64,000 nucleotides of DNA from NCBI GenBank assembly GCA_042218065.1, contig JBDGRL010000002.1:15539-79538 (forward strand), read 5' to 3'. The notes below the pieces were generated by a model, which saw only the letters and a list, made by a program, of their open reading frames with translations, had not been told where the DNA came from and searched no databases. This document shows, piece by piece, positions 29,199-44,878 of the stretch (position 1 is its first letter; every line of letters begins with the position of its first letter). Source of the stretch: Candidatus Magasanikiibacteriota bacterium. GTDB lineage: Bacteria > Patescibacteriota > Patescibacteriia > Magasanikbacterales > UBA922. The translations under genes and the position numbers were made by a program.

Positions 29199-30337
29199 TC
29201 TATAGAGTTTTCAAGTTCTTCAATAGCCTCATCTCGTCTTTCTATAGCAGCTTCTATTTTTTCCATGACAACAGTATCTAGCCCCATATCTTTTGCTCTT
29301 TTTTGTGCTTGCTCTAATCTGCCACTTTCAATAAGTTTTTTAATAAAATCTGCAACAGATGTTTTTTCAGTGGTAGATTCTTCCTTTGTGAACTCCTCAT
29401 CCTTGCCTCTATAAATAACAGTTTCAAACATATTTTCATTAGAATCATCAACTATATTTATCCTTAACTGATTTTTTCCACTGGATGATCCGGCGCCTTG
29501 TTTTGCAGAGAGTTCAGCCTGGTCAGCTTGGGTTATCATTCTGCTAGCTATTGTTTTGGGTTTCCCAGCCAAGCTTTCTTTTGGTGAAACAATTCTTGAT
29601 CCCATACTTACAGATAAGTTTTTTTGTATTTTCCTTCTATCTTCATCAGAAAGACCAATAGTTTCGTGAATATCAATATCTGTTAGTTTATCAAAAAGTC
29701 TTTTAGGTGCGGACATTGCATTTTTTTTGCTACTAATCTCTCTAAACATTACACTAAACTCGTCACCACCCTCACTAGCTGCCACATCAGATTCTCTAAT
29801 TGTGTCTTCAATAACTCTTGCGATCTTTTTAATTATCTTGTCACCTGCCGGATGGCCAAAATTATCATTAATTTCTTTGAAATCGTCTATATCAATATAA
29901 ACTACATTAAAAAACTTATCTCTTTCTCTGTCTTCCCCTATTTCTTGGGCTAAAACCTCTCTTATGGGTCCCTTTTCCAGGAGACCAGTTAGATCATCCT
30001 CCCTCCCTTCTATTTTAGTTTCAGTGAATCTTATTGCATGATCAGCTATTATCTCTTTTTCTACTTGAGTTATTGTGTAGCCCTCACCTTTATCTTCTCT
30101 ATTTTTTTTAAGCCTGGCCTCAATATCTCTCTTAATAGTATCTTTAAGTATGCCCTTTTTTAGATTTTCCATTGGTTTACTTTCACTTCTAATTTTTTCG
30201 AGATATCCTTGTAAATCTTCTAGGCTTTCATCCTTTAACATATTTTCCAAATGGGATCTTGCGATAGTTTCACTCATATCAAATTCTTGGGTTTCTGGTT
30301 CTTCGCCTCTTCCTCTCTGACCTTCGCTTGTGTCCAT
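29195..30337 (-). CDS. GGDEF-domain protein (putative diguanylate cyclase) with an N-terminal coiled-coil region
   Basis: DIDDFKEINDNFGHPAGDKIIKKIA...RESDVAASEGGDEFSVMF. The GGDEF active-site motif is intact and no TM or EAL domain is present. Confidence 0.75.
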   Translation of the reverse strand: MDTSEGQRGRGEEPETQEFDMSETIARSHLENMLKDESLEDLQGYLEKIRSESKPMENLKKGILKDTIKRDIEARLKKNREDKGEGYTITQVEKEIIADHAIRFTETKIEGREDDLTGLLEKGPIREVLAQEIGEDRERDKFFNVVYIDIDDFKEINDNFGHPAGDKIIKKIARVIEDTIRESDVAASEGGDEFSVMFREISSKKNAMSAPKRLFDKLTDIDIHETIGLSDEDRRKIQKNLSVSMGSRIVSPKESLAGKPKTIASRMITQADQAELSAKQGAGSSSGKNQLRINIVDDSNENMFETVIYRGKDEEFTKEESTTEKTSVADFIKKLIESGRLEQAQKRAKDMGLDTVVMEKIEAAIERRDEAIEELENSID

Positions 30338-31780: not shown

Positions 31781-32084
31781 TTAAATAGTGTTACTTAATG
31801 CCAAGTTATTATAACACTATAGGTAATGGATAGAAAATTTTAGTATATTATATTTTACGACGCAGAATTTATTCTTAATTAAGTGAAATTTAAGTTTGTT
31901 AAAAAGTGATTAAAAATTTAATCAGAATCTGATTTTATTAATTCTCGTTTGTATCTTAATTTATTTTATTTGAAATTGTTTCACGTGAAACAATATAGGC
32001 TTTTTAAACTAATAAGATTAAAATAAATATTTTAGCTTGATAAATTTATTGAAATTTGTTACTGTGAAGTTGTTCTTTCAGGAC

Positions 32085-32365
32085 AACGAGTTTGCTAGTG
32101 GTAATTCCTAGGATTACCTACTGGCATGCCCTAGCCATCTCTGGGAGCAGCTAATAGCTGCCTAAGATTGATGCTCCGTTCGGGCGAGTCCGGATAATCA
32201 ATCTTAGAAAAAGCTGGCAGCCGATGCTGGGGCTTACTTGCCTTCGGCAGGGCAGGACCTCCTCCCCAGTGAATCGGTTTGGGGTTTCACCCACCCCGCC
32301 TCCCGATAGATCTCTATTGCCCTGATCAAGCAATATATCTACCGGGAGGTAAACGGGTTTTTTTA
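32085..32365 (+). ncRNA. GC-rich structured RNA-like element of unassigned identity, between parS sites 1 and 2
   Basis: About 280 nt at over 50% GC inside roughly 25% GC intergenic DNA. Multiple hairpins: GGTAAT-tcctagg-ATTACC, GCAGC-taata-GCTGC, GATTGAT...ATCAATC, CTTGCC-ttc-GGCAGG, and a long CCTCCCG...CGGGAGG stem followed by a T7 run. No clear protein frame. Confidence 0.35.
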
Positions 32366-32800
32366 TTTAAAATTGTTTCACGTGAAACAATTCTGCTCGT
32401 ATTTTACTCTGATATGGGTATTTAGCAGTAATTTTGCAGTTAAAATGTTTCACGTGAAACAATTTTACATCAATATACAGTCTTTTTGCTTATAAAAAAT
32501 GTTTCACGTGAAACAATTTAGTTACTTAAAACGTGTAAATAAGACAAAACACCGAAAAAAAGTGAATAATATTGTTTCACGTGAAACACTTTTTAAACTG
32601 AATAACCAAAATTATCTTTATTTGCATATTTATTACTTTTTTTTAGTATAGCTCCCTTTTTTATCTTAGATTGATAACAGCTCCCAAAAATGCTATAATC
32701 ACCCTGTATTGTTTCACGTGAAACAATTTAAACCAAGAAAATATAGGAAATAGGGTAAATGAGATGAAAAATGGATGAAAATGTTTCACGTGAAACATTT

Positions 32801-32872
32801 GCCCTCGTAGTTTAATGGACAAAACAAAAGCCTCCTAAGCTTTAGATGCACGTTCGATTCGTGCCGAGGGCA
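32801..32872 (+). tRNA. tRNA-Arg (anticodon CCT)
   Basis: Acceptor GCCCTCG/CGAGGGC, anticodon stem-loop AAAGC-CTCCTAA-GCTTT, T-arm GCACGTTCGATTCGTGC; 72 nt. A parS site sits immediately upstream (32780-32799). Confidence 0.85.
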
Positions 32873-33180
32873 CAAGTAAATACTCTTCATTAGAAAGGTG
32901 CTGAGTGTTCTTTTAGTGTATATTTAGACTCAATGTTTCATGTGAAACATTGAAAAGATAAATTAAACTTGTTAAACCCCTATAAAAGCCAAAAAGTTAT
33001 AAAGATATAGAAAAAAGTATATTTATAACTGAAAAGTACATAAAATTGTTTCACGTGAAACAATTTGGTAAAACCTTTAATCAAAAACGGGCTTGTTAAT
33101 TGTTTCACGTGAAACAAAGAGGAGTTAAAAATCTGTTTAGTTGTTTTTTGAAATTTTAGCGTCGTAAAATATTAATATCT

Positions 33181-33265
33181 TGTGGAAAACTTGTTGATAA
33201 GTTAAAAAAATTAGTGGATAAATTGTGTATAAGTTCTTAAAATCTGTTGATAAAGCTGTGGATAA
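33181..33265. promoter_or_regulatory. Dense cluster of six DnaA-box-like 9-mers (second oriC-like or DnaA-titration element)
   Basis: TGTGGAAAA (33181), TGTTGATAA (33192), AGTGGATAA (33213), TGTGTATAA (33224), TGTTGATAA (33246) and a perfect TGTGGATAA (33257-33265), all on the same strand within 85 bp. AT-rich DNA follows. Confidence 0.5.
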
Positions 33266-33361
33266 AAACAATTTAAACTAAATTAAGCTCAAATTATAAT
33301 AAGTTTATATAGATCCGTTTTTATCGACTAAATATTGAAAAATTCATCAATCAAGGCGTAT

Positions 33362-33690
33362 TAGATCATAAAAAAATGTTACTGAAATGACTTACGGTTA
33401 GATCACAAAAAATGTTACTGTGGTGTGTTTAATTTTTTAAATTGAACACACCATGAACAATCAAGCTAAAACATCTTACCAGCGAGTGCAAGAGCACTCG
33501 CAGATAGACCAGAAAGTAAAAAATAAACTTAAAGAAAAATTTAAGCAACTTAACCCCAAACAACTTAAAGAAAACATAGACAAAATGATTAAAAAGATTA
33601 GAAAATCAGCCCAAAATACAAAATAATTTCAGTAACATGCTTTTATGATCTAACCGTGGGGGGTTGAGTAACAATTTTTATGATCTAAAG
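33362..33690. repeat. Four copies of a TAGATCA(Y)AAAAAATGTTACTG motif (two direct, two inverted) bracketing a 57-codon Lys-rich ORF
   Basis: Direct copies at 33362-33388 and 33398-33424; inverted copies at 33618-33648 and 33668-33690. The ORF 33453-33626 (+) encodes MNNQAKTSYQRVQEHSQIDQKVKNKLKEKFKQLNPKQLKENIDKMIKKIRKSAQNTK. A related GTTACTG motif lies at about 32055. Confidence 0.35.
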
Positions 33691-33732: not shown

Positions 33733-34392
33733 ATGAATTTGAAAAGAATAATCACAATATCAATCCTTTCGTTTGTTTTATTTGCCATTCTTCCGAAAAC
33801 TGCTGACACTCAGATGAGTGGAGGGGGTTATAATATTTATACTGACAAGTTTTCTGTGGTTAGTACTAATACTTCTACCGGTGGCGCTTATGAGATTACC
33901 CAAACTGGCGGGCAGTACTTTGCTACTAATACAAAAAAAGGCAGTTTTGAGTTGCGCGGAGGATTTCAAGCACAAGAAAAAGGAATTTTAAAGGTAAATT
34001 TAAGTAAAAATACCCTTGATTTAGGTACTATTTCAAAAAGCAATGTATCAAAAGGTAGTATAAAAGTCACAATAACGACTGATTCAGAAACTGGATATAA
34101 CTTATCTATAAGCGAAAATCATAATTTAAAGTCAAATTCATTAACAATAAATGATGTTTCAGATGGTTCGGTGACTGGTGGCAGTCAAGAGTATGGAATT
34201 ACTACAAAAGGGGCTGATGGTTTGCTAAACCAAGACAAAGGTATTTCTGGCAATTTAAATATAGCGTCACACGATGGACAGGTGTACAAACGAACAGTGG
34301 AGGTTATATTTAAAGCATCTTTGTCCAATACTCCTGCTAATAATGAAGATCTATCACACAAAGTGACATTCAACACAACTGTAAATCCTTAA
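33733..34392 (+). CDS. Secreted beta-rich protein (first gene of the surface module)
   Basis: Signal peptide MNLKRIITISILSFVLFAILPKTADT followed by a Thr/Ser/Gly/Asn-rich sequence. The start at 33733 is preferred over the track start 33715, and a -10 TATAAT lies at about 33718. Confidence 0.5.
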   Translation: MNLKRIITISILSFVLFAILPKTADTQMSGGGYNIYTDKFSVVSTNTSTGGAYEITQTGGQYFATNTKKGSFELRGGFQAQEKGILKVNLSKNTLDLGTISKSNVSKGSIKVTITTDSETGYNLSISENHNLKSNSLTINDVSDGSVTGGSQEYGITTKGADGLLNQDKGISGNLNIASHDGQVYKRTVEVIFKASLSNTPANNEDLSHKVTFNTTVNP

Positions 34393-34393
34393 A

Positions 34394-35257
34394 ATGATTA
34401 GAAAAATAGCAGTTTTCATAATAATACTTGCTCTTTTTTTACCTTTAGAGGCTGAAGCTGTGTCAATTTCTCCTTTGCGCCAGGCAGTTTCTATAGAAAA
34501 AGGTGAAAAGAAACAAGTTCAGGTTAGCGTAAAAAACACATCAGACTCAAGAAAAAAATTTGTACCTGAGGTGAGCGGTTTTGATTTAAATAGTAGGGGG
34601 AGTATAAATTATGAAGCAGAAAGTATAGCTGAAGACTGGTTGCTTTATGACAGAAACCCCTTTGTTTTAGACCCCGGAGAAGAGAAGGAGGTCAGTTTTA
34701 CTATTAATATTCCAAATGAAGCTAAATCAAAGTCTTATTATTTGGTATTATTTATAAAAAGGGCAGGCATTGAGAGAAAGATGGCCGCCAGCCCAAAAGT
34801 AGGGTCTTTGTTATTTGTTCATGTAGCTGGGACTAGAGTAGAGAAAATGAGTATAGATAGTTTTGTGTCTTCTCGAAATTATTATTTTAGTACTCCGGTA
34901 AATATTAATATGAATACGAGAAATCTGGGTTCTATTCATGTTATACCTCAGGGAGCTGTAAGTATATTAGACAATGGAGAAGTGGTGGCAAAGAAAGAAA
35001 TAAATAAATCTAAGCAGATGGTTTTGCCGGATGGTACCTTTTCTAGAGAATTATCTTTTTCTAACTTAAATTGGACAGAAACCGGAAAACTAAAAGCAGT
35101 AGCTTATTTAAAATATGGCAGAACCTCAAAAACTACCTCTGCTTCTACAGAATTTTGGTTCATACCCAAAAAAGTTTTGATTTTTACTGGTGTCTTGATT
35201 ATAGCTCTGCTTTTCTTACTTTTTAGATTGAAGTCAAAAATAAAAAAATATGACTAA
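34394..35257 (+). CDS. Cell-surface protein with signal peptide and C-terminal TM anchor plus basic tail (DUF916/DUF3324-like or pilus-chaperone-like Ig fold)
   Basis: Signal peptide, then AVSISPLRQAVSIEKGEKKQVQVSVKNTSD in a beta-sandwich-like pattern, and a C-terminal TM FTGVLIIALLFLLFRLKSKIKKYD. Confidence 0.45.
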   Translation: MIRKIAVFIIILALFLPLEAEAVSISPLRQAVSIEKGEKKQVQVSVKNTSDSRKKFVPEVSGFDLNSRGSINYEAESIAEDWLLYDRNPFVLDPGEEKEVSFTINIPNEAKSKSYYLVLFIKRAGIERKMAASPKVGSLLFVHVAGTRVEKMSIDSFVSSRNYYFSTPVNINMNTRNLGSIHVIPQGAVSILDNGEVVAKKEINKSKQMVLPDGTFSRELSFSNLNWTETGKLKAVAYLKYGRTSKTTSASTEFWFIPKKVLIFTGVLIIALLFLLFRLKSKIKKYD

Positions 35258-36197
35258 TGAAAAAAAACAGAAAATTTTATTTTTTTCTTTATTTTTTATT
35301 TTTATATTGGCCTCCTTCTTTTTTATAAAAAATTCCTTTGTTTTAGCAGATTCTAAATCAAAATCTGCTACCATAAAAGGGACGACAAAAAGTGGCGGCG
35401 GTGGAGGTGGTGGAGGTGGAGTAAGTAACTCTTCTCCTGATATATCTAATATTTCTACAAGCACCCGGATGAATTCAGCTACAGTTACTTGGAAAGCTAC
35501 TGATGATAATCAGGTAAAAAAATGTGATTTCAAGTACAGTTCTGGTGTAAGTTACAACAAAAGCGTGTCCGTCACAAAAAGTGGTAATACTTATACAGCT
35601 AAACCTTCAGGGTTGAGCCCCACCACTACCTATAACTTTAAGATTATATGTCATGATAATGTTCAAAGCTCTGATGAGAAAGGACAATTTACAACTCTAG
35701 CTAAAGCTATAATAGATCTTAATTTAACTGCGATTCCTGCAAAAAGGGTAAAAAAGAAAGGTGGTAATTTAGCATTAAAGTTCATATTAATCATTGTTGA
35801 TCCACAAACCAATAATGTGATGTTAAAACACAAAGGAACTACTAATTCAAAAGGTACTTACACTGCAAAAAGATTAAAAGCGGGTGCAGGATCAGCCCAT
35901 GCTTATCTGAAGGGGCGCTCTCACTTAGCAAAAAAGATTGTAGGTGTTAATATAAAAGATGGAAAAACAGTGAAATTAGACTTTTCTGCAGGAGGAAAAT
36001 CTAAGTTGATTCCCGGCGATGCGGCTGGCAAGGGTCTAAAAGACAACTTTATAGATATATTAGATTTATCAGTAGTACTAGCTAAAATGAATACTGCCGA
36101 CAAGGACACTGATTTAAATAGGGATGGTATAACTGATATTTTAGATCTTAGTATTTTATTAAATAATTTTAATAAATCTGGAGCAAAACTACCTTAA
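35250..36197 (+). CDS. Secreted protein with poly-Gly linker, fibronectin type III-like domain and C-terminal dockerin-like repeats
   Basis: Signal/TM, G9 linker, an FN3-like region (ATVTWKATDDNQ...TTYNFKI), and two dockerin-type Ca-binding repeats at the C-terminus (DNFIDILDLSVVLAKM and DLNRDGITDILDLSILLNNF). Confidence 0.55.
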   Translation: MTNEKKQKILFFSLFFIFILASFFFIKNSFVLADSKSKSATIKGTTKSGGGGGGGGGVSNSSPDISNISTSTRMNSATVTWKATDDNQVKKCDFKYSSGVSYNKSVSVTKSGNTYTAKPSGLSPTTTYNFKIICHDNVQSSDEKGQFTTLAKAIIDLNLTAIPAKRVKKKGGNLALKFILIIVDPQTNNVMLKHKGTTNSKGTYTAKRLKAGAGSAHAYLKGRSHLAKKIVGVNIKDGKTVKLDFSAGGKSKLIPGDAAGKGLKDNFIDILDLSVVLAKMNTADKDTDLNRDGITDILDLSILLNNFNKSGAKLP

Positions 36198-36198
36198 T

Positions 36199-39100
36199 AT
36201 GGTTTTTAAGAGTGTAGATAAAATTGTATATTCTTTAGTCTTGGCTTTATTTGTCTTGGTGTCATTAGGATATTTTTCAGTAGCGCAAGCAAAAGGTGTG
36301 TTATCTATTAACCCCAGTTCAGGTCAAGCAAAGACCAACTGCCCTTTTAATGGGGATATAAGGCTAGACACAAAAGGAAACAAAGCTGATGCCACACAGG
36401 TTTATATTGATCATGATTTTACAGGAGGACAAGAGACATTCTCTTTATCCGGTTCTCGCTTATTCAATTCTTACTCTAATATTAAAAATAAGAATTTGCC
36501 TTCGGGGGTTGAGGACGGGTTAATAGGGTATGGTGGTAAAGTCAGTGGTTCAAACTTAAAGTTTGCCAGCTTCAAATTAAAAAGCCCAAATAAAGGCAAA
36601 ACTGGACAGGTAAAAATTTACTTTAAACCAAAGAAGAATAAGACAAGTAAGGTAGCTAAGAATGGAACTAATATATTATCCAAAGTAAATAACGGAACTA
36701 TTAATGTAGTACAAGGATATTGTGAGAACAAAAAGCCAAATGTAGTAAATCTAGACCCAAAACATAGAGAACCAAACCACCCTGTGGATAAACCGATAAA
36801 ATTTGACTTAACGGATAATAGTTCTGGGGTTGATATCTCGACCCTCCAAGTGATAATTAAACACAATAATAAAACTAACAAATATAGTAATCAAGATTCG
36901 GAGGTTACAACTAACAAGATAAATAATACAGATTATTCTGTAGAAGTTGACCCTCAAAAAGACTTTACTCCTCAAGTTCGTGTGGATGTAGAGGTGCAAG
37001 TGAAAGATAAAGCAGGAAATCAAGGTAAAAGAAAGTACTATTTTAATGATTTAACTTGTAAGCAGTTGGGATGTGTGGGGGTGCAAGTGAAAACTCAGTG
37101 TAATGATGGTAAAGACAATGACGGTGACGGTAAGATAGACTTAAATGATCCGGGTTGTAGTAGTAAGTCAGATAATAATGAATATCAGGTCGGTCTTACA
37201 AAATGTAATGATGGCCGTGATAATGATGGAGATGGTTTAGTAGATTTCGCTGATCCTGGCTGTCAAAGTGAGAAAGCTCAAGTGCAACAACAAATTAAGA
37301 CGCAGACTGTAACTAACACAGTAATAAAAACAAAAACTACTACGGTACCGACAAAAGTTCCAGATAAAACTAAAACAGTAACTAAGACTGTACAAAAGGT
37401 CATAACTTCCACAGTAAGAGAGGTTGAAACAGTAACCACAACTGAAGTAGCAACAGTCACCAAAAAAATAGAAAAACCTGACTGTAATGATGGAATTGAC
37501 AATGACGGAGATAAGTTGACTGACTTTCCTGAAGACCCTGGGTGCGACAGCAAACAAGATGATAGTGAGTTCGACAAAGCTACGCAAAAAGTACTGCAGT
37601 TATCTGATGTTTCTTTTCAGATAGGAGGACTGAGTGTGGAGCCTTCAGAAGGTAGAGTGGTGGATGTACTTAGAGGGTCTAAATTAAATGTCAGTCTAAA
37701 TATCTCTAAAGTAGAAAAGACTATTGAATCGGTGGAGCTACAATTTCAGGACCAAAAGAAAGAGATGTTCTATAATAATGAAACTGGTAATTATTCAGGC
37801 GAGATTACAATAGACGAGAAAAGAGGAGTTTATAGTGGCTTTGTTAGAGCTAATTATTCAGATGGCGACTTTGATTCTGTTCCGTTTAGTGTTTTGGTGC
37901 AGCCAAGTGGAAAGATAGTAGGCAGAAATAAAGAGGGTGAGATATCTGGACTAAAAGGGGCAAATATAAAAATTCAAAAATTAGAAGACGGAGAATATAC
38001 TGAGTTTAAGCAAACAAAAACAAATAAAAATGGAATATATAGTGTCTTTGTACCGAATGGTGTTTACCGGTTGTCGATATCAAAAAAAGGTTATGAAAGT
38101 GATGTTACGGCTGGGTTCGAAGTAGAGAACAACATTATAAATAAGAAAATACAGCTGCTTGAAGATATACAACTTCTAGATCCGAATGTTTCTACCGGCA
38201 AGAAGATACAGTACATACAAGATTTATCTGTAAAGAAGACTAAAGAAGCAGGGGAGCTAGCGGACGATCCTACGGTAGAGAAGCAAACTCAGTCTTCTAT
38301 TGCCCCTGCTGCGGCAGCGGCTACAGGAGCAGCTGTAGCTCCTGCTTTAGGTCTGGTGAATCTCTTGAATTACTTGAGGTTCTTGTTCTTCCAGCCATTG
38401 CTTTTGCTGGGAAGAAGAAAGAGAGAAGATTGGGGTGTAGTGTATAATTCACTTACTCGATCAACCATTGATCTAGCTGTCGTAAGGTTGGTTGATTTTG
38501 AATCAGACGAGGTGGTGCAGTCGAGAGTGACTGATGCTGAAGGCAGATACATCTTCTTTGCAAAACCGGGCAAATATAGGATAAAAGTAGAAAAAGAACA
38601 GTTTGATTTTCCAACTGAAAATCTGTCTGATGTAGATGAAGATGGTCCATATACAGATATATACCACGGAGAACCTATAAGAGTTGAAGAAGAGGATACA
38701 GCAGTTGCTCCAAATATCCCGCTTGATCCGGTAGAAGCCGAAGAAAAAACACCTTCAAGAATTAAATGGGACAAGATTAAAAAGACTGCACAGAAATATT
38801 TGGCTAGACTTGGTATCATTGCAGGTGTAATTTCTATGATTATTAATCCAACTTGGTTAATAGGTATCCTTCTGGCTGCTCAGATTGGTATTTATTACCT
38901 ATTTAGACGACTTGGAACCACACCTGAACCTGAGAATTGGGGAATTATAAAAGAAGAAGATACCGAATCTCCTGTTGGAGAGGCTACTGTTCGACTGTTT
39001 ACTAAAGATAGGAACAAACTTGTGTCCACTCAGCAAACAGATGAAAATGGTCGCTATGCTTTCCTTGCTGGTCCAAAGGACTATTATGTGCGTGTTGATA

Positions 39101-39243
39101 AAGAGGGTTACTCACCGGAAAGTAAAGAAGTTTCTGTAGAGGAAGGAGAAGAATTTATTCAAGAGGATGTAGATCTAAAAAAGACTAAACAAGGACCAAA
39201 AACAGAAGATGATGGAGAGGATGACTTGTCATTTGCAGAGTAA
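36199..39243 (+). CDS. Giant (1014 aa) surface protein with three Cys-bounded DxDxDG calcium-binding repeats, three carboxypeptidase-regulatory-like (prealbumin-fold) domains and internal TM segments
   Basis: Signal/TM at the N-terminus. Three repeats: CNDGKDNDGDGKIDLNDPGC, CNDGRDNDGDGLVDFADPGC and CNDGIDNDGDKLTDFPEDPGC. Three CarbopepD_reg-like modules (NGIYSVFVPNGVYRLSISKKGY, GRYIFFAKPGKYRIKVEKEQF, GRYAFLAGPKDYYVRVDKEGY). Hydrophobic segments at about aa 690-730 and 860-900. Confidence 0.55.
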   Translation: MVFKSVDKIVYSLVLALFVLVSLGYFSVAQAKGVLSINPSSGQAKTNCPFNGDIRLDTKGNKADATQVYIDHDFTGGQETFSLSGSRLFNSYSNIKNKNLPSGVEDGLIGYGGKVSGSNLKFASFKLKSPNKGKTGQVKIYFKPKKNKTSKVAKNGTNILSKVNNGTINVVQGYCENKKPNVVNLDPKHREPNHPVDKPIKFDLTDNSSGVDISTLQVIIKHNNKTNKYSNQDSEVTTNKINNTDYSVEVDPQKDFTPQVRVDVEVQVKDKAGNQGKRKYYFNDLTCKQLGCVGVQVKTQCNDGKDNDGDGKIDLNDPGCSSKSDNNEYQVGLTKCNDGRDNDGDGLVDFADPGCQSEKAQVQQQIKTQTVTNTVIKTKTTTVPTKVPDKTKTVTKTVQKVITSTVREVETVTTTEVATVTKKIEKPDCNDGIDNDGDKLTDFPEDPGCDSKQDDSEFDKATQKVLQLSDVSFQIGGLSVEPSEGRVVDVLRGSKLNVSLNISKVEKTIESVELQFQDQKKEMFYNNETGNYSGEITIDEKRGVYSGFVRANYSDGDFDSVPFSVLVQPSGKIVGRNKEGEISGLKGANIKIQKLEDGEYTEFKQTKTNKNGIYSVFVPNGVYRLSISKKGYESDVTAGFEVENNIINKKIQLLEDIQLLDPNVSTGKKIQYIQDLSVKKTKEAGELADDPTVEKQTQSSIAPAAAAATGAAVAPALGLVNLLNYLRFLFFQPLLLLGRRKREDWGVVYNSLTRSTIDLAVVRLVDFESDEVVQSRVTDAEGRYIFFAKPGKYRIKVEKEQFDFPTENLSDVDEDGPYTDIYHGEPIRVEEEDTAVAPNIPLDPVEAEEKTPSRIKWDKIKKTAQKYLARLGIIAGVISMIINPTWLIGILLAAQIGIYYLFRRLGTTPEPENWGIIKEEDTESPVGEATVRLFTKDRNKLVSTQQTDENGRYAFLAGPKDYYVRVDKEGYSPESKEVSVEEGEEFIQEDVDLKKTKQGPKTEDDGEDDLSFAE

Positions 39244-39423: not shown

Positions 39424-40005
39424 ATGATTTTATCTGATCGCGATATAAAAGAAGAAATGGATGAAGGTAATATTGTTATTGATCCTTTCAATGAAGAAAA
39501 TCTGCAGCCGGCATCTTATGATCTGCATTTGGACAAGCATTTTCTAGTTTTTGATGAGATTCAACATCATGTTATCGATCCTAAGCAGAATCTAGATGAT
39601 AAAATGAAAGAAGTAGAGATCGACGAAGATGATGCTTTTATCATTCATCCGAATGAGTTTGCACTGGGCATGGTCAAGGAGGTGACTGGTGTTTCTGATA
39701 AAATTGCAGGGAGGCTGGAAGGTAAAAGTTCTGTAGGCCGGCTTGGGTTGTTAATTCATGTGACGGCTGGTTTTTTAGATCCTGGAAATGAGCTGAAGTT
39801 GACTCTAGAGCTTCACAACACAGCTCCGATGCCAATTAAATTGTATTATAATATGCCGATAGCACAGATTGCCTTCGAAAAGCTTAGTGATTCTTGTTCT
39901 GACCCTTACTCAGAAGGAAGAGAGGAAGATAAATATTACGGCGATATGAAGCCCAAAGCTTCACAGATGTTTAAAAACTTTGATGAAGATCAGGGATGGG
40001 TATAA
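39424..40005 (+). CDS. dcd: dCTP deaminase
   Basis: The N-terminus MILSDRDIKEEMDEGNIVIDPF is the classic Dcd start, and the C-terminal beta-barrel (dUTPase-like) fold pattern is present. Confidence 0.85.
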   Translation: MILSDRDIKEEMDEGNIVIDPFNEENLQPASYDLHLDKHFLVFDEIQHHVIDPKQNLDDKMKEVEIDEDDAFIIHPNEFALGMVKEVTGVSDKIAGRLEGKSSVGRLGLLIHVTAGFLDPGNELKLTLELHNTAPMPIKLYYNMPIAQIAFEKLSDSCSDPYSEGREEDKYYGDMKPKASQMFKNFDEDQGWV

Positions 40006-40541
40006 AACTAGGTATTGTAGGAAAAATAGGCAGTGGAAAAACTACTGCAGCTAAGTATCTACAACAGGCACATAATTTTAAAACTATTAAGTTTTCTGGA
40101 TTTGTTCGAGATATTTTAGACAGGATGCATTTACAGCAGAATCGGGATAATATGTCCAAATTATCAACTTCTCTTAGAGAAAGTTTTGGTAAGGACATAT
40201 TTAGTCGTGTGCTCATAAAAGAATCAAAAAACAAGGATAGAGTGATATTAGAAGGCGCCAGAAAACAAGAGGATTTATCCAATTTTAAAGACAGAGAAGA
40301 TTTTTATTTACTTGCCATAAGTGCCGACCAGGAAATTAGATATAATAGAGTTTCATCTCGTAATGAGAATGAAGATGATAAAGGTAAAACTTTTGAAGAA
40401 TTTAAACAAGACGAGAAAAAAGCTACTGAAACTGAAATTGCTTCTTTAATGAAACTAGCAGATTATACAATAAGCAATAATGGAACATTGGCAGAATTTC
40501 AAGAAAAATTAGATAAATTAATAGCTAAATTAAATGAATGA
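39996..40541 (+). CDS. P-loop nucleotide kinase (CoaE/dNMP-kinase-like) embedded in the pyrimidine cluster
   Basis: Walker A MGIKLGIVGKIGSGKTTAAKYL, a 181-aa size, and a lid-like region. Its position between dcd and dut suggests a (d)NMP kinase role. Confidence 0.55.
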   Translation: MGIKLGIVGKIGSGKTTAAKYLQQAHNFKTIKFSGFVRDILDRMHLQQNRDNMSKLSTSLRESFGKDIFSRVLIKESKNKDRVILEGARKQEDLSNFKDREDFYLLAISADQEIRYNRVSSRNENEDDKGKTFEEFKQDEKKATETEIASLMKLADYTISNNGTLAEFQEKLDKLIAKLNE

Positions 40542-41433
40542 GAAATTTAGAGAAAATAGGTATGTAGCAAGTTCGGAATCTGAATATACTGAATTAACAA
40601 GAGAAAATAGAGAAGAGCTAAAAGAAGAATTAAAAGAATCTTTGCCTGAATTAAAGAAACTTTTCTTGGAGGAACTTGAATCTTGTCCTTTTATAAGTGA
40701 TAATTTGATTGATAATATTAAAGATAGGGTTGACGAAGTAAATTTTAATCTAATTAATGAAATTCAAAAAGAACATACAGGATTGTTTAGGGGTATTTAT
40801 GATTTTATAACTGATGAAATTAAACTGAAAGAAAAGGCTAACAAAGGTACTATTATTCATGAATTACTGCACGCTGTAAGTAGTAGATTAATGAACAAAA
40901 AATCCCTAGAAGAAGGAGAGTTTAAAGTATTAGTCGGGGGTCTTAGTCCTGGAATAAAGTTAGATTTAGAAAAAGTAGATTTTGATTCAGAAGATGAAAT
41001 TAAAAATTTTTTTGAACATCCCGAATATGTAAGATGGCTAGAAGAAGGGGTTACTGATAAGTTTACCAGAGATATTTTTGGAGAAGAGGGGAGTAAAAAT
41101 TATGACCCTTATGTTTATTTACTAGAAGCTATACAAGAAGAGGCTGGAATTTCAGACGAGGAACTGGCAGAGGCATACTTTAAACCTTTTAAAAAATCTG
41201 AACAAAGTGAATATAATACAGAGGCAATTAGTAATTTCTTCAGTGCTATAAATGAGCGTTATACTTCTGGAATTATTTTTTATATACATGTAGTTTTAGG
41301 ATATGAATATACTCCTAAAGAAAGAGAAGAAATTGATAGTATTGATAAAGCGAAAGAATTTATTGAAGAAGTAGAAAAGGAATATAGTGATCGAAGTTTA
41401 ACTGATTTGGTAGAAGATTTGAAGCAACAGTGA
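40534..41433 (+). CDS. Hypothetical acidic protein with an HExxH motif
   Basis: A 299-aa Glu-rich protein; TIIHELLHAVSS contains HExxH; otherwise unrecognised. Confidence 0.35.
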   Translation: MNEKFRENRYVASSESEYTELTRENREELKEELKESLPELKKLFLEELESCPFISDNLIDNIKDRVDEVNFNLINEIQKEHTGLFRGIYDFITDEIKLKEKANKGTIIHELLHAVSSRLMNKKSLEEGEFKVLVGGLSPGIKLDLEKVDFDSEDEIKNFFEHPEYVRWLEEGVTDKFTRDIFGEEGSKNYDPYVYLLEAIQEEAGISDEELAEAYFKPFKKSEQSEYNTEAISNFFSAINERYTSGIIFYIHVVLGYEYTPKEREEIDSIDKAKEFIEEVEKEYSDRSLTDLVEDLKQQ

Positions 41434-41456
41434 AGCTAATTTAATAAAAGGTCTAT

Positions 41457-41882
41457 ATGAAAGTTAAAGTAAAAAAACTAAAAGGAGAAGCAAAAATTCC
41501 CAGCTTTGCGCATGAAGGTGATGCAGGAATGGATATTTATTCGACAGAGGATAAAGTAATCACCCCAAAAAACAGGGAGACGATTGAGTTGGGTTTCGCA
41601 ATGCAGTTTCCGTCAGATTACATGGTTATTTTTAAAGATAGAAGCAGTTTGGCTTCGGAGTATGGGGTTCATACTTTAGCGGGAGTTATAGACTCGGGGT
41701 ATAGAGGTGAGTATAAAGCAGTATTGGTTAATTTGGGGGATGAAAGTTTTGAGGTTGAAACAGGACAGAAAGTAGGGCAGATGTTATTTTTACCAAGACC
41801 TGAAATAGAGGTAGAACAAGTAGAAGAATTATCAGATTCTATTCGAGGAGAAGGAGGGTTTGGAAGCACAGGTAAGTTTTAA
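41457..41882 (+). CDS. dut: dUTP diphosphatase (trimeric dUTPase)
   Basis: Motifs AGMDIYS, GVIDSGYRGE and the C-terminal RGEGGFGSTG (motif V). Confidence 0.9.
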   Translation: MKVKVKKLKGEAKIPSFAHEGDAGMDIYSTEDKVITPKNRETIELGFAMQFPSDYMVIFKDRSSLASEYGVHTLAGVIDSGYRGEYKAVLVNLGDESFEVETGQKVGQMLFLPRPEIEVEQVEELSDSIRGEGGFGSTGKF

Positions 41883-41891
41883 TTAAATAAT

Positions 41892-43673
41892 ATGCAAGAA
41901 TACTCAGACAAAGAGCATAAAGCTTTACTTAATTTTGTAACAAGCACGGATTCAAATATTTACGCAGTAAAGAATTTACGTCCAGAAGTTTTTGGTGCTT
42001 TTGGTTCCTTCTTTTCGCGCAGCCCGAAAGATGTACGTGATCATATATTGGATGCAGTTAAAGGTGAAATTCGAGGTTACGAGATGGAGGGTGGAGAAGA
42101 AAGATTGAATAAATTAGCTACAAGCTATGAATTTCTACAAAAAAGATCAAAACTAGACTCTGGTGAAGACAGTGGAGGTATTAAGCAAGAGTTGAAAGAT
42201 ATTTTGAATAAAAAACGAGGGGTTAGAGCTGAGCTTGAAGCTTCTATTTTTGAACCACCAATGAAGGCTTTAGAGTCTGGTTTAGAGAAATCTCAGTCTT
42301 TTTTTGAAAAGTATTATGGAACTTATGGTCACAAATCTATTGCAAATACTGTTTGGATTTCATTTGTGGCAAATGATGTCAGTCAACTTTTTGCCCGAAA
42401 ACTGGCTGATGACCAACTTGCATTTTTTATTGAACAATCCACACGTTTTGTCGAATTTGAAGATAATTATTACAAGGATCCTAGAATTATGGAAAGTGAA
42501 TATAGCGATCTCTATAATGATACCTTAGAAACTATGATTGAATACTATAACAAATTTTATGAGCTAGCTAATAATTTCTACCAAGAAAAAATACCATTTA
42601 ACGACTGGCTAGACCAACAATCAGATAGGGTTAAAGAAAAGTCTGATAGCTATCAGGAAAGAAAATATGAAAGAGAACTAAATGGAAAAGCTTTGGATAT
42701 CGCAAGATTTTTGTTGCCTCAAGCTATAAAAACTAATTTAGCGTGGATCCTAGACGCTAGAAGTACGGAGTTTGATATAGCAAGCTGGAAGGGGCACCCA
42801 TTGTCCGAGATACAAGAATCAGCTGAAAAAATAGAACAAGCTGGCGGAGAAATTGCACCTTCTTTGCTTAAATACACAGAAAAAAATGATTTTTATGAAG
42901 AAAAGTTGCATGAATATGGTGGTGATTTAGAATTAGACTTGGAAGATAAAGAGATTGAAAAAGGGGTAGAAATTGTATCTACTCCCGAAGACTGCTTTGA
43001 GAAAGTGGTAGCACACATCTTAAAGCAAAATAATATAGGTAAATTTAGTCAGTTTTTCCAAAAAGCGAAAAATATGACTTATGATGAAAAGCTAGATATT
43101 TTAGAGCGTACAGTAAAAAATAGAGGTGAATACGATGAGTGGGTGGGAGCAAATGAGGAGATAGATTTAGAAAAAATCGTGGTAGAGATTAAAACTGATG
43201 TGGGAGCACTGAGGGATATTAGAAGACATCAAAAAAATGATAGAGGAGAGCATAGATATTCGCTAGATATGGGGTATTATCGTCCTGATGTAGTTGATAA
43301 AATGAACAAAGAAGCCCAAAATTTATTCGATAAAACTATGGATATTGCACATGAAGCTGAGAAAGAAATTAGAAAAGACTTCCCTTTTGCGGTTCAGTAC
43401 TTGATTCCTATGGCATCCATGACAACTATTACTATGAGTATGGGGTTCGATCAGTTGCAATACTTTATCTACACTAGGTCAACTCCAGAAGGTAATTTTT
43501 CTTATCGAGAAGATACATTTAATTTAACAGAAGCATTAGTAAAGAAATTTCCTTGGTTGTTGGGAATGAAAGAATACCCTGAAGATAAGGACATCAAAGA
43601 AGTTTATGATAATTGTAGTTGGCAAGATTTGTTTATCTCTTTAAGTACTGACGAGACTGGTTTACATACTTAA
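41892..43673 (+). CDS. Tandem-duplicated ThyX-like (flavin-dependent thymidylate synthase fold) protein with non-canonical catalytic motifs
   Basis: The first-half segment GHKSIANTVWISFVANDVSQLFARKLADDQLAFFIEQSTRF aligns with the ThyX core [41 protein letters not shown], but ADD replaces RHR. The second half has VEIVSTPED...IVVEIKTDVGALRDIRRHQKNDRGEHRYS, with RHQ in place of RHR and the Ser position not conserved. Length is 593 aa against about 220-250 for canonical ThyX. Confidence 0.5.
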   Translation: MQEYSDKEHKALLNFVTSTDSNIYAVKNLRPEVFGAFGSFFSRSPKDVRDHILDAVKGEIRGYEMEGGEERLNKLATSYEFLQKRSKLDSGEDSGGIKQELKDILNKKRGVRAELEASIFEPPMKALESGLEKSQSFFEKYYGTYGHKSIANTVWISFVANDVSQLFARKLADDQLAFFIEQSTRFVEFEDNYYKDPRIMESEYSDLYNDTLETMIEYYNKFYELANNFYQEKIPFNDWLDQQSDRVKEKSDSYQERKYERELNGKALDIARFLLPQAIKTNLAWILDARSTEFDIASWKGHPLSEIQESAEKIEQAGGEIAPSLLKYTEKNDFYEEKLHEYGGDLELDLEDKEIEKGVEIVSTPEDCFEKVVAHILKQNNIGKFSQFFQKAKNMTYDEKLDILERTVKNRGEYDEWVGANEEIDLEKIVVEIKTDVGALRDIRRHQKNDRGEHRYSLDMGYYRPDVVDKMNKEAQNLFDKTMDIAHEAEKEIRKDFPFAVQYLIPMASMTTITMSMGFDQLQYFIYTRSTPEGNFSYREDTFNLTEALVKKFPWLLGMKEYPEDKDIKEVYDNCSWQDLFISLSTDETGLHT

Positions 43674-43683
43674 AAATAATTTA

Positions 43684-44873: not shown

Positions 44874-44878
44874 TTTTC

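What the first reader, a model, noticed from the sequence alone, without database searches (positions are those of the whole stretch)
33733..39243. Four-gene secreted/surface module with FN3, dockerin-like, Cys-bounded DxDxDG Ca-binding repeats and a 1014-aa multi-domain protein
Four consecutive, tightly spaced genes all carry signal peptides. The first is a small secreted beta-rich protein. The second is a protein with an Ig/beta-sandwich-like ectodomain and C-terminal TM anchor (DUF916/CscA-like or pilus-chaperone-like). The third has a G9 linker, an FN3 domain and two dockerin-type Ca-binding repeats. The fourth, giant protein has three repeats of CNDGxDNDGDGxxDxxDPGC (thrombospondin-type-3/Excalibur-like Ca sites), three carboxypeptidase-regulatory-like domains and internal TM segments. 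A dockerin implies a cohesin-like partner, possibly one of the neighbours. In a reduced-genome organism this looks like a dedicated cell-surface adhesion complex, perhaps for attaching to a host or partner cell, and its architecture is not a described system.
Basis: partly seen in the sequence, partly recalled or inferred. Interest (0 to 1): 0.65.

Follow-up and report, generated by a model that had tools for sequence, protein, structure and literature searches.

The report
Pam-like fibre locus with cohesin–dockerin joint
These four genes of an ultra-small (CPR) bacterium most likely build a cell-surface fibre of the recently described Pam/WxL chaperone-and-pilin kind, and in this lineage the fibre's membrane anchor has been split into two proteins that carry a matching dockerin and cohesin-like module at the break.

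Summary
Four tightly packed + strand genes (33733-39243) all start with signal-peptide-like segments, and the G9 linker, FN3, dockerin, three Cys-bounded acidic repeats, three CarboxypepD_reg domains and two internal hydrophobic stretches are all present.

The window comes from a Candidatus Magasanikbacteria MAG. The conserved core is three genes, found in more than 15 CPR loci:
- g1 is a small pilin-like protein. It is a distant Pam-pilin relative with a chaperone-usher-pilin-like fold and a conserved N-terminal extension that does not fold in the monomer model.
- g2 has two Ig-like domains and a C-terminal membrane helix. Its best structural match is WxLIP, followed by PapD-type chaperones.
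- The third is one large anchor protein.

In six loci, including this one, the anchor is split. g3 keeps the conserved N-terminal strand and ends in an X-dockerin. g4 begins with a cohesin-like domain. The two modules occur only together and only in split loci.

My best reading is a chaperone-assisted, donor-strand surface fibre or cap, tethered to the membrane through a dockerin–cohesin joint. I rate it a new variant of a known kind. All evidence is computational.

The parts
33733..34392 (+). g1: pilin-like subunit (219 aa), a distant relative of Pam pilins (PamT type)
33814..33990 (+). g1 conserved N-terminal extension (residues 28-86, M-S-G-G-x-Y-x-I-Y-x-D ... LRGGFQAQEKGIL): candidate donor-strand region
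   Evidence: The segment contains invariant and near-invariant residues (M28, G30, G31, Y36, D38, G77, F78, Q79, E82). Yet pLDDT is below 50 for residues 24-79 in the monomer model, while residues 80-219 score above 90. That it acts as a donor strand is an inference.
33991..34389 (+). g1 Ig-like beta-sandwich domain ending in the invariant C-terminus T-V-N-P
   Evidence: AF2 places confident strands at residues 86-217. T216, N218 and P219 are invariant.
34394..35257 (+). g2: membrane-anchored protein with two Ig-like domains, WxLIP/PapD-chaperone-like (287 aa)
34733..34831 (+). g2 conserved long beta-hairpin (residues 114-146) with a flexible tip: candidate strand donated to g1
   Evidence: Strands 114-123 and 136-145 flank a loop with pLDDT below 50 (residues 127-133). 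They carry 9 of the 34 invariant positions (Y116, L117, F120, G137, L139, L140, F141, G146, and E150 just after). The analogy to the PapD G1 strand and the WxLIP hairpin (PMC10599100) is an inference.
35168..35254 (+). g2 C-terminal transmembrane anchor followed by a basic tail
35250..36197 (+). g3: adaptor protein (315 aa): signal peptide, conserved N-terminal strand, G9 linker, FN3, X module, dockerin
35349..35393 (+). g3 mature N-terminal motif (DSKSKSATIKGTTKS): candidate donor strand, PamR-like
   Evidence: The same motif, A-D-x-x-S-x-(A/V)-T-(I/V)-N-A-T-V-P, follows the signal peptide of the third-gene product in both split and unsplit loci. It is always followed by a Gly-, Pro- or Cys-rich linker. 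It is absent from all 26 cohesin-first g4-type proteins.
35394..35420 (+). g3 Gly9 linker
   Evidence: Read directly from the sequence.
35433..35705 (+). g3 FN3 domain
   Evidence: Pfam Pur_ac_phosph_N scores 2.2e-5 and fn3 0.0076. Homologous FN3 domains score above threshold in the unsplit relatives. The domain is dispensable, since L027 lacks it.
35706..36182 (+). g3 X module plus dockerin (type-II XDoc-like)
   Evidence: A profile search against the PDB matches 4u3s_B at 8.7e-7, 4wi0_B at 2.3e-6 and 5k39_B at 3.2e-6, aligned over profile positions 188-307. NCBIfam dockerin_GC scores 1.3e-4. An XDoc HMM hits gene 3 of all six split loci and nothing in the other fetched loci.
36199..39243 (+). 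g4: 1014-aa membrane-embedded base protein
36292..36729 (+). g4 N-terminal cohesin-like domain (residues 32-177)
   Evidence: phmmer against 1.84 billion representatives gave 20 hits. In 5 of them the aligned segment passes Pfam Cohesin, at 29.6-38.4 bits against a gathering score of 24.1. hhalign between the two groups gives probability 99.3%, E 4e-20. The best PDB profile hit is a cohesin, but only at E 0.11. g4 itself gives no direct Pfam Cohesin hit.
36730..37059 (+). g4 second Ig-like domain (Big_5-like in relatives)
   Evidence: Pfam Big_5 is found in 5 of the 20 N1 homologues. The domain is conserved in L001, L003, L022 and L023.
37099..37545 (+). Three acidic Cys-bounded repeats (37099-37158, 37204-37263, 37483-37545) separated by a Thr/Val/Lys-rich spacer (37264-37482)
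   Evidence: NCBIfam acid_disulf_rpt scores 1.6e-20, above its cut-off, in 3 stretches. Positions come from a regular-expression search. Ca binding is inferred from the DxDxDG pattern. The repeats are absent from L023 gene 4.
37594..39243 (+). g4_C: conserved base module. It comprises a beta domain, CarboxypepD_reg 1 (37906-38163), hydrophobic stretch 1 (38293-38412), CarboxypepD_reg 2 (38431-38730), hydrophobic stretch 2 (38797-38904) and CarboxypepD_reg 3 (38938-39183)
   Evidence: Pfam finds CarboxypepD_reg three times. The module is 33-45% identical in the third or fourth gene of every sufficiently long related locus. The family has more than 100 clusters, all named ones from CPR. Membrane topology is unresolved.

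Best explanation
The module is a compact relative of the Pam pilus system of CPR bacteria. Equivalently, it is a CPR counterpart of the Firmicute WxL/WxLIP surface clusters. I read it as a chaperone-assisted, strand-complementation surface fibre.

Proposed mechanism (steps marked shown or inferred):
1. All four proteins are exported by Sec. Shown: N-terminal signal-like segments.
2. g2 stays in the membrane through its C-terminal helix. Shown: the helix and the two Ig-like domains.
3. Like PapD, PamC/D and WxLIP, g2 holds newly exported g1 by inserting its conserved long hairpin into g1's Ig-like domain. Inferred.
4. g1 is then released onto a donor strand. This is either the conserved N-terminal extension of another g1, giving a homopolymeric fibre, or the conserved N-terminal strand of the anchor protein, which would cap or terminate and tether, as proposed for PamR. 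Inferred.
5. In most relatives the anchor is one protein of about 1,100 aa. Its order is N-terminal strand, Cys-rich or Gly linker, FN3 domains, acidic repeats, then a membrane-embedded C-terminal module with three transthyretin-like domains. Shown.
6. In this lineage the anchor is split. Shown. g3 keeps the strand and FN3 and ends in an X-dockerin. g4 starts with a new signal peptide and a cohesin-like domain, followed by the rest of the anchor.
7. The X-dockerin of g3 docks, with Ca2+, onto the cohesin-like domain of g4 and so restores the link non-covalently. Inferred from strict co-occurrence at the break point.
8. The likely role is contact with or adhesion to a partner cell. Inferred from CPR biology and from Pam pili.

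Given that the general model is right, I put about 0.45 on g1 polymerising. I put about 0.4 on g1 being a single PamT-like cap on the g3/g4 stalk.
For: Conserved core.
- The order g1-like, g2-like, large protein carrying g4_C holds in every sufficiently long related locus (L001-L004, L007, L009, L012-L024, L026, L027).
- Each locus has exactly one g1 and one g2 homologue, and the 64-kb window has no paralogues.

g1.
- Family-wide significant matches to NCBIfam PamT (26/27, best 2.5e-16) and Pam_pilin_C (25/27, best 7.8e-10).
- The L024 orthologue passes the Pam_pilin_C cut-off over the full domain and aligns end to end with PamT.
- The AF2 model has a confident Ig-like domain and a conserved but unfolded N-terminal 55 residues.

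g2.
- Two Ig-like domains plus a C-terminal TM helix.
- Pfam WxLIP_PGBD matches 7 of 10 members.
- The most conserved motifs sit on the long hairpin whose tip is flexible.
- This is the architecture described for PamC/PamD and for WxLIP, where AF2 predicted hairpin insertion into the WxL partner.

Anchor.
- A conserved alternating motif sits at the mature N-terminus of the third-gene product, followed by a flexible linker.
- This parallels PamR, which has an N-terminal strand, FN3 domains and a membrane helix.

Split and joint.
- The X-dockerin matches solved XDoc structures at E 8.7e-7.
- g4 N1 is homologous to Pfam-positive cohesins.
- Its closest relatives outside the family carry SLH domains, like anchoring scaffoldins.
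- XDoc and cohesin-like N1 co-occur in 6 of 6 split loci, down to 30% g1 identity. They occur in none of the unsplit loci.
- 26 of 103 g4_C-family clusters start with the cohesin-like domain, and none of those 26 has the N-terminal strand motif.
Against: - No complex was modelled or measured, so strand insertion, polymerisation and dockerin-cohesin binding are all inferences.
- g1 and g2 fall below the curated cut-offs of every family model. Their profiles find nothing in PDB sequences.
- The AF2 alignments were shallow (10 and 27 sequences).
- g1 resembles PamT, which the Pam authors regard as a tip subunit without a donor strand. There is no PamA/B/E-type two-domain pilin here, so a true filament may not form.
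- g4 N1 has no direct Pfam Cohesin hit, and its best PDB cohesin match has E 0.11.
- The first dockerin loop lacks the canonical Ca ligands.
- The six split loci may descend from a single fission event, so their co-occurrence counts as one observation in evolutionary terms.
- The topology and role of the three CarboxypepD_reg domains are unexplained.
Confidence: 0.55

Rival explanations
1. WxL-type static surface complex. g2 is a WxLIP-like protein that permanently holds and presents g1 at the cell surface by hairpin insertion. Nothing is handed over and nothing polymerises. g3/g4 is a separate co-expressed adhesin.
For: g2's best structural match is WxLIP, and its only sequence-family signal is WxLIP_PGBD. 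WxL clusters pair one WxLIP with small secreted beta proteins, and the predicted interaction is hairpin insertion. There is only one g1-type gene per locus.
Against: g1 contains no tryptophan, so it has no W-x-L motif (sequence). It matches Pam pilin models instead. No WxLIP_HBD/DUF3324 hit was found. This reading does not explain the conserved N-terminal strand of the third-gene product or the conserved unfolded N-terminal extension of g1. CPR cell walls and the peptidoglycan binding proposed for WxL proteins were not examined.
Confidence: 0.2
2. One reading: essentially a cohesin-dockerin adhesion scaffold. g1 and g2 would be unrelated accessory beta-sandwich surface proteins, and the whole would be a system of a new kind.
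For: The X-dockerin and the cohesin-like domain are real and adjacent. The FN3, Ig and Ca-repeat modules are typical of adhesins.
Against: The dockerin and cohesin-like modules are absent from most related loci, which keep g1, g2 and g4_C. g1 and g2 are the most conserved partners and have Pam and WxLIP affinities. There are no carbohydrate-active enzymes and no other dockerin proteins in the window: the XDoc HMM hits only g3.
Confidence: 0.1
3. Phage-derived tail-fibre or receptor-binding module, or an S-layer component, rather than a cellular fibre.
For: There are weak Pfam phage_tail_N hits in g4 and its relatives. The Pam paper calls a conserved neighbour 'tail fibre-like'. The relatives of N1 with SLH domains are S-layer-associated.
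Against: The phage_tail_N hits overlap the generic CarboxypepD_reg fold. The flanks are housekeeping genes (RmuC, S20, dCTP deaminase, dUTPase, thymidylate genes) with conserved synteny. There are no phage structural genes. Composition is uniform across the region. g4 has no SLH domain.
Confidence: 0.03

Closest known systems
Pam pilus system of CPR bacteria (Candidatus Mycosynbacter amalyticus; Troman et al., bioRxiv 10.64898/2026.03.03.709456; NCBIfam NF058579 PamT, NF058581 Pam_pilin_C)
   Same: Both are restricted to CPR. Both use Sec-exported subunits with an Ig-like pilin domain homologous to g1. Both have a PapD-like chaperone with two Ig-like domains held in the membrane by a C-terminal helix, as g2 is. 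Both have a tether with an N-terminal strand, FN3 and a membrane anchor (compare g3+g4). Neither has an usher or an ATPase in the locus.
   Different: This module has only one pilin gene, of the PamT (tip) type, and no two-domain PamA/B/E pilins. It has one chaperone rather than two. The anchor is a giant protein with acidic Cys-bounded repeats and three CarboxypepD_reg domains interleaved with hydrophobic stretches, whereas PamR is a 33-kDa protein. In this lineage the anchor is split and carries an X-dockerin/cohesin-like pair. g1 scores far below the curated cut-offs. The lineage (Magasanikbacteria, Paceibacteria, Buchananbacteria) lies outside the classes where the preprint found Pam pilins mainly (Saccharimonadia, Microgenomatia). 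There are no neighbouring ATP synthase genes.
WxL / Csc cell-surface clusters of Firmicutes with WxLIP (DUF916-DUF3324-TM) (PMC10599100; PMC1534035)
   Different: There is no WxL domain: g1 has no Trp. There is no LPXTG protein and no DUF3324 sequence match. The partner protein is Pam-pilin-like. The phylum is different.
Chaperone-usher pili of Gram-negative bacteria (Pap, Fim, Csu, CFA/I)
   Same: g1 has a fold-level resemblance to the pilin domain, and g2 to the two-domain chaperone. g1 has a conserved N-terminal extension with alternating hydrophobic residues and an invariant C-terminus.
   Different: There is no usher and no outer membrane. There are no PapD_N/PapD_C or fimbrial Pfam hits. 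The chaperone is membrane-anchored. The similarity is structural only.
Type-II cohesin / X-dockerin anchoring pairs of cellulosomes (e.g. Acetivibrio cellulolyticus ScaA XDoc with ScaB cohesin, PDB 4u3s/4wi0)
   Same: The C-terminal 120 residues of g3 align with the X module plus dockerin of these structures (E about 1e-6). That alignment includes the atypical first loop. The g4 N1 domain is cohesin-like, and its nearest outside relatives combine it with SLH anchors. In both cases the pair would attach an extracellular assembly to the cell.
   Different: There are no enzymes or scaffoldins and only a single dockerin and a single cohesin. The cohesin-bearing protein is anchored by transmembrane stretches. 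The pair sits at the break point of a split gene in a pilus-like locus. Binding is untested.

Membership tests
Pam pilus system (CPR) | [quoted passage not shown] | tested here: inconclusive
   g1 itself scores 18.3 and 43.9 bits, both below cut-off. However, 25-26 of 27 family members give significant hits. The L024 orthologue in the same gene triad scores 93.6 bits on Pam_pilin_C, above the cut-off and over the full domain. This supports homology at superfamily level, not equivalog status.
Pam pilus system (CPR) | Major pilins with two domains (nine-strand N-terminal sandwich, linker donor strand, C-terminal domain: PamA/PamB/PamE) | tested here: not met
   There is only one g1-type gene per locus and none elsewhere in the 64-kb window. 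g1 is 219 aa with a 55-residue N-terminal extension, which is too short for the N-terminal domain.
Pam pilus system (CPR) | PapD/FimC-like chaperone with a C-terminal transmembrane helix (PamC/PamD) | tested here: met
Pam pilus system (CPR) | Membrane tether with an N-terminal strand and FN3 domains (PamR) | tested here: inconclusive
   g3 has a conserved N-terminal strand-like motif and an FN3 domain. The membrane segments are on g4. The unsplit relatives combine all of these in one protein. No PamR sequence or model was available for comparison.
Pam pilus system (CPR) | An extracellular filament assembled by donor-strand exchange | not testable with these tools
   This needs multimer modelling or microscopy.
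WxL / WxLIP cluster (Firmicutes) | WxLIP protein: DUF916 (PF06030), DUF3324 and a C-terminal TM helix | tested here: inconclusive
WxL / WxLIP cluster (Firmicutes) | At least two WxL-domain proteins with the dual Trp-x-Leu motif in the cluster | tested here: not met
   g1 has no tryptophan (sequence). No WxL Pfam or NCBIfam hit was found in any of the four proteins.
Chaperone-usher pilus | Outer-membrane usher and periplasmic PapD-family chaperone (PF00345/PF02753) | tested here: not met
   None of the four proteins hits an usher or PapD family in Pfam or NCBIfam. One g2 relative gives a 0.049 hit to a fimbrial chaperone model. Only fold-level similarity exists.
Cohesin-dockerin pair | Dockerin: duplicated Ca-binding loop-helix segment | tested here: met
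   A profile of g3 orthologues matches solved X-dockerins at E 8.7e-7 to 3.2e-6. The second loop, D-L-N-R-D-G-I-T-D-I-L-D, is canonical. The first is atypical, as in the matched structure. Single-sequence Pfam (0.29) and NCBIfam (1.3e-4) hits fall below their cut-offs.
Cohesin-dockerin pair | Cohesin domain (PF00963) on a partner protein | tested here: inconclusive
   g4 residues 32-177 give no direct Pfam hit. Homology is transitive. phmmer hits at E 2e-5 to 9.5e-4 in a library of 1.84 billion proteins pass Pfam Cohesin in the aligned segment. hhalign gives 99.3%. The best PDB profile hit is a cohesin at E 0.11. No structure model was made.
Cohesin-dockerin pair | Ca-dependent physical binding of the two modules | not testable with these tools
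   Binding is supported only by strict co-occurrence at the split point in 6 of 6 split loci and 0 unsplit loci.

The most novel reading that the evidence does not exclude
The three-gene set is one PamT-like subunit, one WxLIP-like membrane chaperone and one giant anchor with an N-terminal donor strand. It would be a minimal, widespread form of a single ancient strand-complementation surface-fibre machinery of monoderm envelopes. That machinery would unite the Pam pili of CPR bacteria with the WxL clusters of Firmicutes. In one sub-lineage, evolution would have cut the anchor and replaced the peptide bond with a type-II-like X-dockerin/cohesin joint. That would be the first cohesin-dockerin pair serving as the tether of a pilus-like fibre, and a natural example of a split gene repaired by a docking pair.
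Probability: 0.35. Interest if true: 0.75.

Novelty: new variant of a known kind. Interest (0 to 1): 0.6.

Why it matters
How CPR/Patescibacteria hold on to partner cells is largely unknown. Pam pili were recognised only in 2026, by cryo-EM of one cultured species. This locus suggests four things.
- A much simpler version, with one pilin-like gene, exists in uncultured Magasanikbacteria, Paceibacteria and Buchananbacteria. Sequence searches and curated models miss these.
- The CPR chaperone is of the same kind as the WxLIP proteins of Firmicute WxL clusters. That would link two surface systems that have so far been described separately.
- The conserved N-terminal strand on the anchor gives a concrete, testable tethering mechanism.
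- A cohesin-dockerin pair has been recruited outside any cellulosome to rejoin a split anchor. That offers a natural, paired and probably specific docking module from a minimal organism.

Each point can be tested with a few multimer predictions and pull-downs.

Tried and rejected
- Sequence searches of g1 and g2, alone and as family profiles, against all PDB chains found nothing meaningful. The similarity to chaperone-usher proteins is therefore at fold level only.
- A 3-sequence profile of the g4 N-terminus against the PDB found nothing. The cohesin link came only through the exhaustive phmmer search plus Pfam scoring of the hits.
- NCBIfam has no model that matches g2 or its relatives. A direct PamC/PamD comparison was therefore impossible. 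I could not obtain the M. amalyticus Pam sequences, and no Pam structure appeared among the g1 model's PDB fold-search hits.
- The promoter scan was uninformative (23 sites against 21 expected), and no terminators were found in the module.
- A strict regular expression for the N-terminal strand motif undercounted it: 24 of 47, against about 35 by eye.
- A phage or tail-fibre origin was rejected because of housekeeping synteny and the generic nature of the phage_tail_N hits.
- A WxL protein identity for g1 was rejected because it has no Trp.
- A literature search for cohesin/dockerin in CPR gave nothing relevant.
- I could not test complexes, because both structure-prediction jobs went to the g1 and g2 monomers.
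- I could not resolve the membrane topology of g4_C. Positive-inside reasoning favours the order outside, TM, cytoplasmic second CarboxypepD_reg, TM, outside. However, the hydrophobic stretches are 36-40 residues long and could be hairpins.

Full report
**1. What is in the sequence**

They are g1 33733-34392 (219 aa), g2 34394-35257 (287 aa), g3 35250-36197 (315 aa) and g4 36199-39243 (1014 aa). All lie on the + strand and are separated by +1, -8 and +1 nt. No terminator-like site lies inside the module. Each product begins with a basic-then-hydrophobic segment.

The window belongs to a Candidatus Magasanikbacteria MAG. The public proteins ABEJ24_00330 and ABEJ24_00335 sit on a 115,952-bp contig. 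This is a CPR/Patescibacteria genome with about 35% GC and no compositional break at the module.

The listed features are all real.
- G9 lies at g3 residues 49-57.
- g3 has sub-threshold FN3 hits.
- g3 has a dockerin-like C-terminus.
- Three CNDGxDNDGDxxxDxxxDPGC repeats lie at g4 residues 301-320, 336-355 and 429-449. They match NCBIfam acid_disulf_rpt at 1.6e-20, above its cut-off.
- g4 has three CarboxypepD_reg domains (6e-27).
- g4 has two long hydrophobic stretches, at about residues 699-738 and 867-902.

**2. The conserved unit is three genes, not four**

I fetched the genomic context of g2, g1, g4_N1 and g4_C homologues. I then compared these loci with tblastn and local HMMs.

Every locus that is long enough shows the same order. 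A g1-like gene (208-236 aa) is followed by a g2-like gene (276-315 aa). Next comes a large protein whose C-terminal half is 33-45% identical to g4 residues 466-1014.

The loci come from MAGs labelled Magasanikbacteria, Paceibacteria, Nomurabacteria, Buchananbacteria and 'Patescibacteria group'. Several MAGs carry an evidently wrong 'Gammaproteobacteria' label. Each locus has exactly one g1 and one g2 homologue, and the window holds no paralogue.

In most loci the third gene is a single protein of 1,061-1,229 aa (L012, L013, L015, L017, L019, L021; in L024 and L026 it is 926-948 aa). Its order is as follows.
- signal peptide
- a short conserved N-terminal motif
- DUF4215 Cys-rich or Gly/Pro-rich linker
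- one or two FN3 domains
- acidic repeats
- the g4_C module

In six loci this protein is replaced by two genes. These loci are the window, L001, L003, L022, L023 and L027, spanning g1 identities from 79% down to 30%.
- The first gene keeps the signal peptide, the N-terminal motif and usually the FN3. It ends in an X-dockerin.
- The second gene starts with a new signal peptide and the N1 and N2 domains, then continues with the repeats and g4_C.

**3. g1 is a pilin-like subunit related to Pam pilins**

NCBIfam gives g1 a sub-threshold but significant hit to PamT (1.8e-11) and to the Pam pilin C-terminal domain. Of 27 family members, 26 hit PamT and 25 hit Pam_pilin_C (best 2.5e-16 and 7.8e-10).

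The g1 orthologue of the Buchananbacteria triad (L024) passes the curated Pam_pilin_C cut-off. It scores 93.6 bits against a cut-off of 55, over the whole domain. It also aligns end to end with PamT. That bridges the g1 family to the Pam family.

Pam pili were described in 2026 from cryo-EM of Candidatus Mycosynbacter amalyticus filaments (bioRxiv 10.64898/2026.03.03.709456). Their features are as follows.
- The pilins carry a truncated Ig-like C-terminal domain and are joined by donor-strand exchange.
- The PapD-like chaperones, PamC and PamD, have a C-terminal membrane helix.
- There is a tip subunit, PamT.
- There is a tether, PamR, with an N-terminal strand, two FN3 domains and a membrane helix.

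The AF2 model of g1 (27-sequence alignment, mean pLDDT 77) has a confident beta-sandwich at residues 80-219 (pLDDT above 90). Residues 24-79 are unstructured (pLDDT below 50). Yet that segment contains invariant and near-invariant residues: M28, G30, G31, Y36, D38 and G77-F78-Q79. A conserved segment that does not fold in the monomer is what one expects of a strand that pairs with another subunit.

**4. g2 is a membrane-anchored WxLIP/PapD-like protein**

At sequence level, 7 of 10 family members hit Pfam WxLIP_PGBD (DUF916), best 2.8e-8.

The most conserved motifs of the family lie on a long hairpin (strands 114-123 and 136-145) whose tip is flexible. They are HYL-x-LF and G-S-L-L-F-x-H-V.

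In WxL clusters, WxLIP is a protein with two Ig-like domains and a C-terminal helix. Its DUF916 hairpin is predicted to insert into the small WxL partner (PMC10599100). In Pam, PamC/D strands are predicted to complete the pilin fold. g2 fits both descriptions.

No NCBIfam model matched g2. No PDB sequence matched either profile.

**5. The third component and its N-terminal strand**

Across split and unsplit loci, the mature N-terminus of the third-gene product carries a conserved motif of about 12 residues with alternating small or hydrophobic side chains. Examples:
- ADSKSKSATIKGTT in the window
- ADTESDNVTINATVPA
- AEDLNVNATVPA
- AETTNSDINVQLTVP

It is always followed by a flexible Gly-, Pro- or Cys-rich linker. 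In the window that linker is the G9 run.

A strict pattern finds the motif in 24 of 47 signal-bearing unsplit family members. By eye the count is about 35. It is in none of the 26 cohesin-first proteins.

A short peptide conserved on the far side of a flexible linker must bind something. The mature N-terminus of g1 (M-S-G-G-x-Y-x-I-Y-A-D) has the same h-x-I-x-A rhythm.

By analogy with PamR, I infer that this strand inserts into the g1 Ig-like domain. PamR's N-terminal strand was predicted to insert into the last pilin. The anchor would then be the tether.

**6. Dockerin and cohesin**

A profile of the three closest g3 sequences matches solved X-module-plus-dockerin structures. These are the type-II XDoc of Acetivibrio cellulolyticus ScaA (4u3s_B at 8.7e-7, 4wi0_B at 2.3e-6) and a Ruminococcus flavefaciens dockerin (5k39_B at 3.2e-6). 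The match covers 120 residues, including the atypical first loop.

For g4 residues 30-180, an exhaustive phmmer search of 1.84 billion representatives gave 20 hits. In five of them the aligned segment passes Pfam Cohesin. These are P0050, P0051, P0052, P0054 and P0057, at 29.6-38.4 bits against a gathering score of 24.1.

hhalign between the N1-like group and the Pfam-positive group gives 99.3% probability, E 4e-20. This is partly circular, because the groups came from the same search. The best PDB hit of the joint profile is a cohesin, at only E 0.11.

The closest N1 relatives outside the family (P0039, P0042) carry SLH domains, the architecture of anchoring scaffoldins.

The XDoc HMM hits gene 3 in all six split loci and nothing in the other fetched loci. 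The cohesin HMM hits gene 4 in the same six and nothing else.

In L027 the adaptor has lost its FN3 but keeps the N-terminal strand, the Cys-rich linker and the XDoc. That points to those elements as the essential ones.

Among 103 g4_C-family clusters, 26 start with the cohesin-like domain. The two modules therefore sit exactly at the two sides of the break in a split protein. The simplest reading is that they rejoin the halves. The six loci may descend from one fission event, so this is strong circumstantial evidence but not statistically independent.

**7. Mechanism, rivals and limits**

My best explanation, at confidence 0.55, runs as follows.
- g1 to g4 are exported by Sec.
- Membrane-bound g2 chaperones g1 by strand complementation.
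- g1 is passed either to the N-terminal extension of another g1 (fibre) or to the N-terminal strand of g3 (cap or termination).
- g3 docks through its X-dockerin onto the cohesin-like head of g4.
- The conserved C-terminal module of g4 sits in the membrane.

Whether g1 polymerises is open. The case for a single cap is that g1 is PamT-like and is the only pilin gene. The case for a polymer is its conserved, unfolded N-terminal extension.

The rivals, with confidences:
- a static WxL-type complex (0.2)
- a phage or S-layer origin (0.03)

Several things are not shown.
- any protein-protein contact
- Ca binding by the acidic repeats
- the topology of g4_C
- the function of the CarboxypepD_reg domains
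- any role in host attachment

**8. Novelty**

The building blocks are known: the Pam pilin domain, WxLIP/PapD-like chaperones, FN3, X-dockerin, cohesin and CarboxypepD_reg. A related CPR system is now described, so this is not categorically new.

Four things are new.
- the minimal organisation of one pilin, one chaperone and a giant anchor
- its distribution in Magasanikbacteria and allied lineages, where curated models do not reach
- the sequence and structure link between the CPR chaperone and Firmicute WxLIP
- the use of a cohesin-dockerin pair as the joint of a split anchor

A literature search found nothing on cohesin-dockerin pairs in CPR pilus-like loci. I rate it a new variant of a known kind, with interest 0.6.

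Noticed in passing
window 31977-33116: There are ten copies of the 16-nt palindrome TGTTTCACGTGAAACA (nine exact, one with a single mismatch). All lie in the 1.9-kb non-coding stretch upstream of the module, around tRNA-Arg(CCT) at 32801-32873, and none lies elsewhere in the 64 kb (0 expected by chance). The same 16-mer also lies upstream of the module in L001 and L003 and occurs in L017, L019 and L023. It may be an operator for a dimeric regulator, or a genome-wide repeat of these CPR lineages.
   Followed up: partly
window 32058-32366 (+): A GC-rich segment of about 310 nt ends in a T-run. It folds much better than shuffled controls (MFE -129.9 kcal/mol, z = -5.8, 0 of 100 shuffles as good). 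It matches no Rfam family even at E <= 1. It is a candidate unannotated structured RNA.
   Followed up: partly
window 33181-33265 (also 4192-4295 and 13475-13642): Six DnaA-box-like 9-mers (TTATCCACA with at most 1 mismatch), all on the - strand, lie within 85 bp about 470 bp upstream of g1. Two further clusters occur elsewhere in the window. The motif is enriched overall (44 found against 18 expected). Whether any cluster is a replication origin or a regulatory site was not examined.
   Followed up: partly
window 33361-33653: A small Lys-rich ORF (33453-33626, 57 aa) is bracketed by 33-nt inverted repeats (33361-33393 and 33621-33653, 88% complementary) and by duplicated 13-14-nt direct repeats. 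It looks like a tiny cassette flanked by inverted repeats, immediately upstream of g1.
   Followed up: no
L014 842-3118; L021 7586-9886; L023 976-3258; L026 1220-3508; L027 1340-3661: A TPR-containing protein of about 760-773 aa (31-60% identical among the four loci compared) is encoded directly upstream of the g1-like gene in five related loci. It is absent from the window by tblastn. It may be a further, optional component, for example a modifying or assembly factor.
   Followed up: partly
P0140, P0147 (L025 5001-6719): Two members of the g4_C family carry a prepilin-type N-terminal methylation motif (PF07963) instead of a signal peptide. L025 is stand-alone, with no g1- or g2-like neighbours. 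The g4_C module is therefore also used outside the three-gene set.
   Followed up: no
window 29195-30337 (-): The 380-aa ORF 3.4 kb upstream contains a GGDEF-type motif (…GHPAGDK…SEGGDEFSV…). That suggests a diguanylate-cyclase-like signalling protein in this reduced genome. The family was not checked.
   Followed up: no
L013, L014, L016, L018, L020 record titles: Several public MAGs that carry this CPR-type locus are labelled 'uncultured Gammaproteobacteria bacterium'. Their gene content and their similarity to Magasanikbacteria loci suggest the labels are wrong.
   Followed up: no
window 39424-46679 and L001 5955-11577: Downstream of the module, a run of nucleotide-metabolism genes is syntenic between the window and L001. 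In L001 it comprises dCTP deaminase, an AAA kinase-like gene, dUTPase, thymidylate synthase, DHFR and thymidylate kinase. These are ordinary housekeeping genes, which argues against a mobile origin for the module.
   Followed up: partly
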